A stretch of DNA of 64,000 bases from contig OX597827.1 of assembly GCA_951406725.2 (NCBI GenBank), positions 22,196,001 through 22,260,000 of the forward strand. Direction: 5' to 3'. Below the pieces are notes generated by a model. That model made no database searches. It saw nothing but the letters and a program-made list of their open reading frames with translations, and was not told the DNA's origin. Position numbers and translations under genes: made by a program. How positions within the stretch are numbered: position 1 is the stretch's first letter; each line of letters begins with the position of its first letter. Below are positions 29,801 through 41,267 of the stretch, piece after piece. Origin of the DNA: Octopus vulgaris (lineage: Eukaryota).

Positions 29801-31320
29801 TTTCACTCTAGGTTAACCATGACTGAGATACTTAACGATCACTAGTCCAGTCTACCTAGCTGTAAATATATACCACATGATGATGTAGCTCACTGTACTG
29901 TGTCCAAAACAGAGAACTGTCAGTGGATCGCTTTGTTGTATACAGGTACCACAGTGTATTCTACTTCTTCACTACACTGTCTCTGTCACCCACCTTCCTT
30001 GTCCTACTGAGGTAGCCAGGCATCACCTCAATATTAAGAGGGCTACTTCTGACCCCTAGTATACTCTAATCTCTCAGTTCCACTCCCTCTTTCATCTGAG
30101 AGGTCCTTGTCTTGTGACATTGCAAGTGCTGGTGCCACGAAAAAAAAAAACCACCTGTGCTGCTGCCACATATAACACACAGGTTCTAGTGCCATGTAAA
30201 AAAAAACCCATGTTGGTACCACATTTAAAGTATCTAGTACAATCTGTAAAGTGGTTGGCATTAGGAAGGGCATCCAGCCCTAGAAATCCCAATTGGAGCC
30301 TGGTGCAGTTCTCTGGCTTGCCAACTGCTGTCAAACTGTCCAACCTATGCCAGCATGGAAAACTGACATTAAATAATGATACACTGTATCCATAACTAAG
30401 CACTCTAAGTCATTCCACCTGGCTGTATGTAGGTGCCCCATCGAGGTATGGTTTAGTGTTGTTGCTATTGTAAGCATTTGCTGCAATACTGTAAAGTTGA
30501 CTGAGAATTCATTAGTAAATTAGATTTACCCAAGAAAGATTGGCACCTTATGTGAGATGTATTATGTCTTAAGTGTTTAATGATAGAGAAACCAGATTTA
30601 AGAAGATAAGCAGGCAATAAAATAAAGGGTGAACATTGTAGAAATGGTTTGTCATGGGTAGGTTCCCCTCTCCCTTTCATAGGTTCAAATTGTGCCATGG
30701 CAGATAGATTTATTTTTGTTACCTTGTTTCTCATTTTAAGCTCATACGCATTGTTTTTGAAGGTTCTTTAAACATTTCGCATTTAAAGCAGCCTTCGCTG
30801 GCCCAAGTATTCTATCAGTTTTATGTTTGACTCATCCAGATCCAGTCTCTCACACCTACCCTACAATGTCATTCTAAAAATAAACACTGACATCATCACA
30901 ATCTTAAAGCTATGAAATATCATCATCATCATCATCATCGTTTAACGTCTGCTTTCCATGCTAGCATGGGTTGGACGATTTTGACTGAGGGCTGGCGAAC
31001 CAGATGGCTGCACCAGGCTCCAATCTTGATCTGGCAGAGTTTCTACAGCTGGATGCCCTTCCTAACGCCAACCACTCCGAGAGTGTAGTGGCTGCTTTTT
31101 ACATGCCACCGGCACAGGGGCCAGTCTTGATTAATTCAAAACTACATGAATAAAATAAGTCGACAGAATATTCTGATTGCTACAGGGTTAAAGAATGGTT
31201 CTTTGTTCTTTAATTTCCAGACGAGCAATAAGGAGAGGTGAGAGTGTGAAATATCTTGTTCAAGATGCTGTCATTGATTACATCATCAAAGAGAAGCTGT
31301 ACACATCAGAGGACAAGTAA
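8761..31320 (+). CDS. NMNAT: Nicotinamide/nicotinate mononucleotide adenylyltransferase gene: join(8761-8830,14700-14788,17546-17613,19409-19512,21577-21677,24205-24306,28893-28951,31221-31320), 230 aa
   Basis: All introns GT-AG with matching phases, 693 nt total. Motifs [23 protein letters not shown]...[34 protein letters not shown]. Confidence 0.95.
9983..10458. repeat. Spacerless ~476-bp palindrome (inverted duplication)
   Basis: ATTGATGTACATGTGTTTG...TTTTTACTCGGTGTATG is mirrored by CATACACCGAGTAAAAA...CAAACACATGTACATCAAT; centre at 10228/10229. Confidence 0.95.
10465..10867 (+). mobile_element. ~400-bp MITE, Merlin-like, copy 1
   Basis: ~28-bp TIR ATCTTTTCGGTTTGAACGGCAGTTTTT; degenerate 8-bp TSD atatgatg/gaatgatg; internal CCCTAACCCTAA. 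Confidence 0.85.
11591..13240 (-). mobile_element. 5'-truncated RTE LINE with RT C-terminus, ~960-bp 3' UTR and (ATG)n tail
   Basis: Intact frame [12 protein letters not shown]...[12 protein letters not shown]...GRGRPRKTW to stop at 12553; tail GCTAAACGATGATGAT; flanked by TA repeats. Confidence 0.93.
11730..12505. repeat. ~61-bp minisatellite array (about 12-14 units, two main variants) in the RTE 3' UTR
   Basis: Core GGTGCTTTTACGTG(C/T)CACCG at 11872, 11932, 12017, 12077, 12139, 12200, 12261, 12322, 12382 and 12443. Confidence 0.95.
14700..14788 (+). CDS. NMNAT: NMNAT coding exon 2 ([30 protein letters not shown])
   Basis: tttacag| ... AAG|gtaatt; 89 nt, phase 1 to 0. Confidence 0.95.
14850..16680 (-). 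mobile_element. Old, degenerate RTE LINE (EN end plus RT)
   Basis: Frameshifted remnants: [44 protein letters not shown]. Confidence 0.8.
17546..17613 (+). CDS. NMNAT: NMNAT coding exon 3 ([22 protein letters not shown])
   Basis: cttcag| ... AT|gtaagt; 68 nt, phase 0 to 2. Confidence 0.95.
18372..18770 (-). mobile_element. ~400-bp MITE, Merlin-like, copy 2 (inverted relative to copy 1)
   Basis: GGACCTTTTCAGTTTGAACG...CGTTCAAACCGAAAAGATCC; TSD cggaatga/tggaatga. GG termini with an 8-bp TSD fit the Merlin superfamily. Confidence 0.85.
19409..19512 (+). CDS. NMNAT: NMNAT coding exon 4 ([35 protein letters not shown])
   Basis: ttatag| ... G|gtacat; 104 nt, phase 2 to 1. Confidence 0.9.
19615..19813 (+). 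mobile_element. SINE, third family (other copies about 20216-20400, 26915-27125, 27610-27800, 28140-28400, 49260-49460, 51287-51470, 56855-57050, 63358-63580)
   Basis: GGCGAGCTGGCAGAAACGTTAGC...GAGTTCAAATTCCGC (A/B boxes)...CTTTGCCTTTCATCCTTTCGGGG recurs throughout the window. Confidence 0.85.
20447..21022. mobile_element. Fold-back MITE with ~200-bp TIRs and TA flanks
   Basis: TA|CCCCTTTACCATTTTACTTGG ... CCAAGTAAAATGGTAAAAGGG|TA; arms about 20447-20645 and 20821-21022. Confidence 0.9.
21577..21677 (+). CDS. NMNAT: NMNAT coding exon 5 ([34 protein letters not shown])
   Basis: tcttag| ... CAT|gtatgc; 101 nt. Confidence 0.95.
22140..22594. repeat. Degenerate ~450-bp palindrome (old fold-back element)
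   Basis: AAGCTTTTAACAATGCACAAAG...GTAGATCCTGCCATTTTTGATAGC is mirrored by GCTATCAAAAATGGCTGGATCTAC...TTTGTGCATTGTTAGAAGCTT; centre about 22367. Confidence 0.85.
23663..23915. mobile_element. Second TTAA-type MITE family (copies about 13830-14050, 29493-29665, 30770-31191, 41550-41767, 63632-63815)
   Basis: AACCCTTTAGCATT...AATGCTAAA(G/C)GGTT ends and a shared ACAATGTCATTCTAAAAATAAAC interior. Confidence 0.75.
24205..24306 (+). CDS. NMNAT: NMNAT coding exon 6 ([34 protein letters not shown])
   Basis: ttccag| ... CAG|gtgagt; 102 nt. Confidence 0.95.
24708..25025. repeat. Compound (TA)n/(CA)n microsatellite
   Basis: Read directly; source of the spurious HT/YI ORFs. Other (TA)n tracts at about 4783-4827, 6532-6595, 6796-6870, 9380-9430 and 61122-61180. 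Confidence 0.95.
25116..25987 (-). mobile_element. Internally deleted Tc1/mariner element (maT/DD37D-like) with pseudogenised transposase
   Basis: [16 protein letters not shown]...[14 protein letters not shown]...[13 protein letters not shown]; degenerate CAGG..CCTG TIRs, TA at the left end. Confidence 0.85.
26392..26602. mobile_element. TTAA-targeting MITE (piggyBac-like); inverted second copy at 50400-50577
   Basis: TTAA|CCCTTT...AAAGGG|TTAA in both copies, with a shared interior. Confidence 0.85.
27878..28133 (+). mobile_element. tRNA-SINE (same family as 785-1043) nested in another SINE, 9-bp TSD
   Basis: TSD ATTTCACCC at 27869-27877 and 28134-28142; A/B boxes present. Confidence 0.88.
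28893..28951 (+). CDS. NMNAT: NMNAT coding exon 7 ([19 protein letters not shown])
   Basis: tttcag| ... AG|gtcagt; 59 nt; ISSTxxR motif. Confidence 0.95.
31221..31320 (+). CDS. NMNAT: NMNAT coding exon 8 ([33 protein letters not shown])
   Basis: ttccag| acceptor. TAA at 31318-31320 lies within a donor-like AA|gtaaga. Confidence 0.93.
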
Positions 31321-31799
31321 GAGACTTTCCTGATTTCACAATCTTCACATTCTATTTACTTTGTTTCTCTGCCACATTTCATAACACACACACACTCTTG
31401 TCATATTCCACAATCCTCATTCTGTAGAACTCAAATTTCACAACCCATAATTTCCAATTCCCAACTCCAATAATGTCCTCATTGTTATTTTACATCTGCA
31501 TACCATTGCTGGCATGGGTTAGCATAGGTTATTTGCAACCCCAGTCAGTTCTCTTCGACAGGATGGGGACCATGTCTCACTCATACATTCTATTGTTTAA
31601 CGCAGTTTCTAAGGTTGAATGCCTTTCCTCACACCAACCCCTCTACAGGGCTAATGTGAAAATCCTGTATAAAATGATGGAGCTCTCACTGTCACTAGAA
31701 ATGCTATTAAACCGTGCTACTGACTGAGCAGAATGTTTAGAAAAAAGGTGGAACTCTTTCAAGTAGACCCAACATTAGGGAACAGATAATGAAGTTAAG

Positions 31800-32160
31800 A
31801 GCTAATATAGCGGGAATAGTAAACTTGACTTGACAGCATTCACCCAGGGTGGGTTGAGCTGGCTTCATTCATCCTCAATGCTGCATCTCTCACAAATGCC
31901 GACCAGGCCTGGCAATTTGAGGCTAACGACCGTGTGATCTCCAACCACTCCTTATTCTAGTGGCGAACACCATAGATATGGGGGCCTAAGTTGGGTTCCA
32001 GATCAGACTTGACTGTCATCAGCCAGGTTTTTTGTTGTTCACTACATTGCTTTCGCCAACCCTGAAGGGGAGCTGGGTTTTCTCCTTGTTGACGACGGAG
32101 GGCATGACCCAGCCAACACAGACGTCTCGTTAGGATGACTTGTCGGAGGGAGGTGATTCT
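31800..32160 (-). mobile_element. RTE LINE 3' fragment, different subfamily
   Basis: RRLCWLGHALRR...QKTWLMTVKSDLEP. Confidence 0.7.
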
Positions 32161-41030: not shown

Positions 41031-41245
41031 TAAATGTTGGCTAACAATTTGAGCTCTCTATGCAGTTACTCTACAACTTCATCTAATAATATTTTAAAGC
41101 TCACACTCTGTCTTTATCAATTTGTTTAATAAACATTTTCTTTTTTCTATTGATTCTATTTTTGTACAATAAATGGACTGATTTCACCTCTGTTGTAATC
41201 ACTGACTTGTTCTTCCTCCTCTCCTAATTGCTGTGTCTCTGTCAG

Positions 41246-41267
41246 ATCTGCTGACACAGAGTTGTGA
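41246..41267 (+). CDS. NMNAT: Candidate NMNAT alternative last exon C (KSADTEL*)
   Basis: Branch-like cctaat, pyrimidine tract and gtcag acceptor; phase 2; ends in T-E-L. Confidence 0.45.

What the first reader, a model, noticed from the sequence alone, without database searches (positions are those of the whole stretch)
31221..41267. NMNAT stop codon doubles as a splice donor feeding a cassette of alternative C-termini, two with PDZ-binding motifs
Seen: exon 8 ends GAC AA|GTAAGA. Unspliced it reads EDK*. Spliced in phase 2 it joins good acceptors at 33590 (EDKEENTHQAIST*), 38670 (EDNPHKPLEKLRGLEYSKTSTQL*) and 41246 (EDKSADTEL*), and more weakly 38349 (40 further codons ending VYALIGVLFTQI*). 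TQL and TEL both fit the class I PDZ ligand S/T-x-hydrophobic-COOH. Known: Drosophila Nmnat switches localisation and chaperone/neuroprotective function via alternative last exons, and vertebrates use three paralogs for compartment targeting. Inference: one gene generates several tail-addressed NAD+ synthase isoforms, some docked on PDZ scaffolds (synapse or axon). This is the best candidate for an undescribed system in this window.
Basis: partly seen in the sequence, partly recalled or inferred. Interest (0 to 1): 0.72.

Follow-up and report, generated by a model that had tools for sequence, protein, structure and literature searches.

The report
Octopus NMNAT alternative last exons

Summary
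The window holds an Octopus vulgaris NMNAT1/3-type gene. The donor at 31316 is real and all four proposed tails translate as stated. The stop/donor overlap is unremarkable: any phase-2 GTAA donor gives it, and 3 of 4 phase-2 introns here do.

Two last exons have support. 33590 is in O. sinensis and O. bimaculoides gene models.

The proposed PDZ tails have none. All 4 runs cross 38670 unspliced inside the long 3' UTR of the 36193 exon. 41246 lies about 55 nt past where 2 of 4 runs stop, just after an AATAAA. No ortholog ends so (0 of 127 proteins), and 16 of 240 YAG sites give such tails by chance.

A PDZ-type end (ETCV/ETRV), found in 10 named lophotrochozoan genera, is encoded by a second octopus NMNAT gene on another contig. 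So this is a Drosophila-like alternative-last-exon switch, already annotated, not a new PDZ cassette. Rare isoforms are not excluded.

The parts
4270..4364 (+). First coding exon of the long form; encodes most of a basic, acid-free N-terminal extension that looks like a mitochondrial presequence (function inferred)
   Evidence: Exon set reproduces P0001 (CAI9732611.1) exactly; first 36 aa have 7 K/R and 0 D/E; O. sinensis X3 lacks it
8748..8830 (+). Coding exon 2; second ATG at 8761 starts the short form; holds the TxxH motif
14700..14788 (+). Coding exon 3
17546..17613 (+). Coding exon 4; its phase-2 donor also reads into an immediate TAA
19409..19512 (+). Coding exon 5 (WxxT motif)
21577..21677 (+). 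Coding exon 6
24205..24306 (+). Coding exon 7
28893..28951 (+). Coding exon 8 (SxxxxR motif)
31221..31316 (+).
   Evidence: its last 30 nt are the loose end on contigs starting at 36193
31317..31322 (+). Phase-2 splice donor GTAAGA; unspliced it reads K then stop (TAA 31318-31320)
   Evidence: same donor in the C2 paralogue; read-through not tested by RNA here
33590..33623 (+). Alternative last exon A, coding part (short tail ending QAIST)
36193..36307 (+).
   Evidence: Annotated in O. vulgaris, O. sinensis, O. bimaculoides; junction from 31316 on contigs of X1 and X6
36308..41190 (+). About 4.9 kb 3' UTR of exon B (extent inferred from overlapping contigs; no single piece spans it)
   Evidence: Contigs 36193-39280 (X1), 36781-39212 and 39183-41187 (X10), 40343-41190 (X1)
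38349..38472 (+).
   Evidence: Crossed unspliced in X1 and X10; X2 and X6 have holes here and it abuts a poly-T run, so the test is weaker; 18 of 20 pyrimidines
38670..38733 (+).
   Evidence: Crossed by one unbroken contig in 4 of 4 runs, no listed loose end
39271..39393 (.). Left arm of a 123-nt, 92% inverted repeat in the 3' UTR, part of an interspersed repeat
40910..41032 (.). Right arm of the inverted repeat; carries clustered A>G differences in contigs (editing inferred)
41168..41173 (+). AATAAA, likely poly(A) signal of the exon B transcript
   Evidence: X10 and X1 contigs end 14 and 17 nt after it; X2 and X6 run past it
41246..41267 (+).
   Evidence: Uncovered in X1 and X10, crossed unspliced in X2 and X6, no listed loose end

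Best explanation
This NMNAT1/3-type gene splices its phase-2 donor at 31316 to a last exon at 36193 and, by gene models in two sister species, to one at 33590, likely swapping a disordered tail and the 3' UTR as Drosophila Nmnat does, while the AG sites at 38349, 38670 and 41246 are likely unused. Shown: the donor, the 36193 junction, the long UTR running unspliced over 38670, and the exon structure. Annotation-based: the 33590 isoform and a short form without the N-terminal extension. Inferred: an unspliced K-stop form; mitochondrial import of the long N-terminus; the tail and UTR choice tuning stability, localisation or chaperone activity of a catalytically identical enzyme. The ancestral lophotrochozoan PDZ-type end (ETCV) is encoded by the paralogue on contig C2, not by this gene.
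For: Exon set matches O. vulgaris CAI9732611.1 exactly with 36193 as last exon. All 6 members of its cluster end in the 36193 tail (4) or the 33590 tail (2), across three Octopus species. Contigs of X1 and X6 (two studies) start at 36193 with a 30-letter loose end identical to 31287-31316. One unbroken contig crosses 38670 in 4 of 4 runs; X1 and X10 (two studies, two organism labels) stop at 41190 and 41187, 17 and 14 nt after AATAAA and before 41246. An unnamed Logan cluster that groups with this gene (100/99) shows the same three-way choice at this junction: K-E tail 1 of 11, NK..SP tail 4 of 11, K-stop 6 of 11. Drosophila Nmnat uses alternative last exons and two start codons (PMC4674693, passages). 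Second gene on C2 with the ETCV end.
Against: Only Logan contigs were laid; they drop rare variants, and the runs are only guessed to be RNA (a spliced join argues X1 and X6 are). 9 loose ends and 107 pieces were not shown, and rows at repeats were dropped. The donor and the acceptors were never laid in one stretch, so joints could show only as loose ends. X2 and X6 cover 41246, so it is transcribed on some strand in those runs, and X2 and X10 show no cover at 36193 itself. 38349 has the best pyrimidine tract of the five sites. Tail likeness to other molluscs is modest: p<0.05 in 5 of 14 uncorrected shuffles for 36193 and 0 of 14 for 33590. No localisation or function was tested.
Confidence: 0.82

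Rival explanations
1. One reading: 38670 and/or 41246 are real, tissue- or injury-specific last exons that give PDZ-docked isoforms, too rare or restricted to survive in contigs.
For: Both are YAG sites with pyrimidine counts (12, 14) in the range of this gene's constitutive acceptors (12-18) and of the used 36193 site (13). Both tails fit S/T-x-L. Contigs drop rare variants, and X2 and X6 cover 41246. Tissue of the runs is unknown.
Against: No junction, contig break or listed loose end at either site in 4 runs. In none of 6 Octopus models and 0 of 127 proteins. Chance rate 16 of 240. 38670 lies in the UTR of a used exon and 41246 beyond the likely cleavage site, where its pyrimidine tract would double as the U/GU-rich downstream poly(A) element (inference).
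Confidence: 0.08
2. The tail choice is mostly about the 3' UTR, not the peptide: the 36193 tail is a decaying relic of the ancestral long tail after the paralogue took over the ETCV end, and the isoforms differ only in mRNA fate (long, repeat-bearing, edited UTR against a short one).
For: The 36193 tail keeps the NKY..SP start but lacks the conserved CMxDIG..ETCV block found in the paralogue. It is less conserved against O. bimaculoides (87%) than the 33590 tail (identical). The UTR is about 4.9 kb with a 123-nt inverted repeat and clustered A>G differences.
Against: The 38-codon frame stays open and alignable in three species, and a similar-length NK..SP tail is kept in the related unnamed cluster. 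This rival overlaps the best explanation; it differs only in what is selected.
Confidence: 0.3
3. O. vulgaris uses only the 36193 exon; 33590 and read-through are annotation noise or unprocessed pre-mRNA.
Against: The 33590 tail is identical in models of two other species. Contigs begin at 36193 with exactly 30 letters of the donor exon, which in a 31-mer assembly suggests a branch at the donor (inference). The Argonauta orthologue ends in a tail of the same length and K-E start.
Confidence: 0.08

Closest known systems
Drosophila Nmnat RA/RB (PC/PD) alternative last exons (PMC4674693, passages read)
   Same: Shared catalytic exons, alternative 3' exons giving different C-terminal tails, and two possible start codons.
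   Different: Fly has one Nmnat gene, octopus two. The fly long tail carries a KKQK nuclear signal; neither supported octopus tail has a basic cluster. No unique perfect complementary match longer than 11 nt was found between the first intron and the 33590-36192 stretch, unlike the fly stem-loop.
Human NMNAT1 and NMNAT3 (PDB 1kqn, 1nup, 5z9r by sequence)
   Same: Catalytic core, E 1e-79 to 2e-73. A basic N-terminal extension recalls the NMNAT3 mitochondrial targeting sequence (PMC12470169, passage).
   Different: Vertebrates address compartments with three genes and an internal isoform-specific region; orthology to NMNAT1 or NMNAT3 was not tested (no vertebrate rows in the tree).
Mollusc and arthropod NMNAT isoforms in RefSeq/UniRef (Magallana, Biomphalaria, Aplysia, Mytilus, Schistocerca and others)
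   Same: Tails diverge at the same position after D-(N/K); several species have more than one annotated tail; 43 of 127 fetched proteins match an NKY..SP-type tail pattern.
   Different: In many lophotrochozoans the long tail runs on to CMxDIG..ETCV; in octopus that block is only in the C2 paralogue.

Membership tests
Eukaryotic NMNAT (CTP_transf_like) | PF01467 above cut-off and close match to solved NMNATs | tested here: met
   68.5 bits against cut-off 21; human NMNAT1 E 1.2e-79
Eukaryotic NMNAT (CTP_transf_like) | (H/T)xxH, WxxT and SxxxxR motifs | tested here: met
   TNMH, WTET and SSTKIR in P0001; motifs as named in PMC12470169 passages
Eukaryotic NMNAT (CTP_transf_like) | NAD+ synthase activity | not testable with these tools
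   needs an assay
Drosophila-type Nmnat alternative-last-exon switch | At least two last exons used from one donor | tested here: met
   36193 by contigs and models; 33590 by models only
Drosophila-type Nmnat alternative-last-exon switch | Nuclear localisation signal (KKQK-like) in one tail | tested here: not met
   No basic cluster in either supported tail (by reading)
Drosophila-type Nmnat alternative-last-exon switch | Intron-exon stem-loop controlling the choice | tested here: inconclusive
   Perfect 11-mer scan gave only CA/TG repeats and two isolated 11-mers; imperfect stems not tested; none among the 25 of 79 inverted pairs shown
Drosophila-type Nmnat alternative-last-exon switch | Stress-regulated isoform ratio; different chaperone activity | not testable with these tools
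   contigs give no levels
   conceptual translation
   no junction in 4 runs of contigs; rare forms could be missed
   0 of 127 proteins; genomic DNA of other cephalopods was not available
Class I PDZ-ligand isoform (C2 paralogue, ETCV) | Conserved S/T-x-V end | tested here: met
   21 of 127 proteins (redundant set), 10 named genera, three Octopus species
Class I PDZ-ligand isoform (C2 paralogue, ETCV) | Binds a PDZ domain | not tested
   no complex prediction or assay was run

The most novel reading that the evidence does not exclude
After a duplication older than the Octopus-Argonauta split, the two octopod NMNAT genes divided the addressing signals of the ancestral gene. The C2 copy kept a lophotrochozoan-wide ETCV end that docks NAD+ synthesis on PDZ scaffolds. 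The window copy lost it, gained an optional mitochondrial presequence and switches between a short-tail mRNA and a long, ADAR-edited 3' UTR mRNA. PDZ docking of NMNAT would then be real and ancient, but at the sister locus.
Probability: 0.3. Interest if true: 0.55.

Novelty: new member of a known kind. Interest (0 to 1): 0.27.

Why it matters
NMNAT localisation sets local NAD+ supply and axon survival. The finding as written would have been a new addressing system, but the supported part is the known fly-type switch and is already in gene models. The useful lead is the sister gene: an ETCV/ETRV end kept across gastropods, bivalves, a nemertean and octopus makes scaffold docking of NMNAT directly testable in molluscan neurons. 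Three literature searches (Nmnat + PDZ-binding, Nmnat + cephalopod, Nmnat + PETCV) listed nothing on it by title or abstract start; that library lacks most subscription papers.

Tried and rejected
1) PF01467 search of the own genome found nothing, because exons are too short; exon and protein queries worked. 2) No RNA holder is listed on record as RNA. 3) RNA contigs were laid only on 36140-41530, so the 33590 junction and read-through remain without direct RNA test. 4) Holes in cover (X2 36140-37312, X10 36140-36780, X6 38028-38395) are not used as evidence. 5) 'Stop doubles as donor' as a special device: rejected, since it follows from a GTAA donor in phase 2 and recurs at 4364 and 17613. 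6) ETCV block in the window: none by pattern or tblastn or own-genome search. LTPLT at the end of the 36193 tail may be a remnant of TPET, but this is an untested resemblance. 7) A>G cluster as a collapse of the two arms: rejected, partner bases are T at 5 of 6 A>G sites and A at one. As a collapse with other genomic copies: unlikely for 40948, 40956, 40958 (A in 14 of 14 copies) and 40964 (13 of 14), possible for 40938 (G in 5 of 14); only 14 of 88 listed matches were checked. 8) The tree does not resolve how the two octopus clades relate to other molluscan NMNATs (open fork). 9) Two look-ups of earlier findings returned nothing. 10) Search Nmnat/mollusc/paralog/evolution gave no relevant listing. 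No complex or structure prediction was run. No supplements were read.
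Full report
Identity. Ten exons of the window (4270-4364 to 31221-31316, then 36193) translate exactly to P0001, CAI9732611.1 of Octopus vulgaris. It scores 68.5 bits on PF01467 and matches human NMNAT1 and NMNAT3 chains at E 1e-79 to 2e-73. The TxxH, WxxT and SxxxxR motifs named in PMC12470169 (passages) are present.

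Observation. The donor GACAA|gtaaga and all four conceptual tails are as described. The stop/donor overlap is not special: a phase-2 intron starting GTAA completes one codon and then reads TAA. That happens at 3 of 4 phase-2 introns of this gene (4364, 17613, 31316) and at the same donor of the paralogue. PDZ-like ends are cheap: 16 of 240 YAG sites in 31360-41300 give S/T-x-[VLI]. By pyrimidine count 38670 is matched or beaten by 55 sites and 41246 by 26; 38349 is among the best 3. This crude score does not predict use, since the used site 36193 scores only 13.

Annotation. The 90% cluster of P0001 has 6 members from three Octopus species. That such models rest on RNA-seq is recalled, not checked. 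The Argonauta orthologue ends in a tail of the same length and K-E start as the 33590 one, though the likeness is not significant by shuffling (p 0.28).

RNA contigs. Twenty of 24 listed runs hold part of 31221-41220; none is on record as RNA. Four (X1, X2, X6, X10; four studies) were laid on 36140-41530. X2 and X10 have no cover there. One unbroken contig crosses 38670 in all 4 runs. 38349 is crossed unspliced in X1 and X10; X2 and X6 have holes there next to a poly-T run. X10 and X1 stop at 41187 and 41190, 14 and 17 nt after AATAAA 41168-41173, before 41246; no DNA run was laid, so this is a weak hint of the 3' end. X2 and X6 run across 41246 unspliced; this may be a longer UTR or the convergent WD40 gene, strand unknown. 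No joint and no listed loose end falls at 38349, 38670 or 41246. Limits: 9 loose ends and 107 pieces were not shown, rows at repeats were dropped, contigs lose rare variants, and 33590 and read-through were outside the laid stretch.

Relatives. Across 127 fetched proteins of at least 150 aa (a redundant set), tails diverge at the same point after D-(N/K). An unnamed Logan cluster that groups with the window gene (100/99; only its representative was in the tree) shows K-E, NK..SP and K-stop forms in 1, 4 and 6 of 11 members. So the three-way choice likely predates Octopus, and the EDK* form is plausible by analogy. The 36193 tail resembles other NKY..SP tails only modestly (p<0.05 in 5 of 14 uncorrected comparisons; 38349 and 38670 each 1 of 14).

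The paralogue. The genome has a second NMNAT on C2 (68% on exon 7; further exons). It has the same phase-2 donor and a last exon ending in the CMxDIG..TPETCV block, identical at the end in O. vulgaris, O. sinensis and O. bimaculoides models. The same end occurs in Plakobranchus, Sinanodonta, Mytilus, Biomphalaria, Patella, Tubulanus, Bulinus, Physella and Magallana. E-T-x-V fits the class I PDZ consensus (recalled); binding was not tested. The block is absent from the window. Argonauta P0002 groups with the window gene (99/96) apart from the C2 copy, so the duplication is older than that split; deeper forks are open (51 rows, one per cluster or species chosen from the fetched set, no vertebrates, bootstrap not fully settled).

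Mechanism. Shown: splicing to 36193 and a long UTR over 38670. Annotated: 33590 and a form starting at 8761. Inferred: competition between the 33590 exon, the 36193 exon and perhaps intronic polyadenylation swaps a short tail and the UTR on an unchanged catalytic core. The optional 36-residue extension (7 K/R, 0 D/E; also in Argonauta) likely sends a share to mitochondria, as the NMNAT3 N-terminus does (PMC12470169, passage). This works like Drosophila Nmnat (PMC4674693, passages) but lacks its KKQK-type nuclear signal, and no control stem was found.

A side result. The long UTR holds a 123-nt, 92% inverted repeat within an interspersed repeat (88 matches). In its right arm 6 of 7 contig differences are A>G, against 5 of 28 elsewhere (Fisher p 0.0017). 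Four sites recur in all 3 runs covering them, under two organism labels. Other genomic copies mostly keep A. ADAR editing is the likely cause; alleles are not excluded without matched DNA. Editing papers were seen only as a search listing.

Novelty and verdict. The alternative last exons are a new instance of a known arrangement and are already in gene models. The PDZ cassette as proposed is unsupported. Searches for Nmnat with PDZ-binding (16 papers, 15 listed, none on the subject by title or abstract start), cephalopod (0) and PETCV (0) found no description of the paralogue's end. Interest 0.27; the lead worth following is the C2 gene.

Noticed in passing
G000:C2:174939952-174940098 (- strand); L001:3853-4117: Last exon of a second NMNAT gene ending in TPETCV, a PDZ-type end conserved in 10 named lophotrochozoan genera. 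In oyster, snail and clam models the block ends at LVRRV(R/K)N and continues either to this end or to other tails, hinting at a second splice switch.
   Followed up: partly
window 4270-4364: Upstream coding exon giving a basic, acid-free N-terminal extension, shared with Argonauta and absent from one O. sinensis model; likely an optional mitochondrial presequence.
   Followed up: partly
window 39271-39393 and 40910-41032: 123-nt inverted repeat in the 3' UTR with clustered A>G differences in three runs; likely ADAR editing.
   Followed up: partly
window 39200-41030: AT-rich interspersed repeat with many genomic copies: a 295-nt element (39200-39494), a 1.4-kb element (39510-40909) and a second partial inverted copy of the first.
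   Followed up: partly
window 43440-53260 (- strand): Convergent WD40-repeat gene (PF00400 on 44559-44808); its 3' end may reach the 41200-42300 region.
   Followed up: partly
window about 2640-3831 (- strand): Open frame starting about 440 nt from the NMNAT first exon, head to head; no Pfam family above cut-off on its first 100 aa.
   Followed up: partly
window 19513-19539: A second in-frame GT donor 27 nt downstream of the annotated end of exon 5 would add 9 residues in the isoform-specific loop; use untested.
   Followed up: no
window 47900-48880: Decayed sequence that reads like a Tc1/mariner transposase (by eye, recalled).
   Followed up: no
window 11770-12500: Array of about 60-nt GC-rich repeat units in intron 2, seen by eye.
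   Followed up: no
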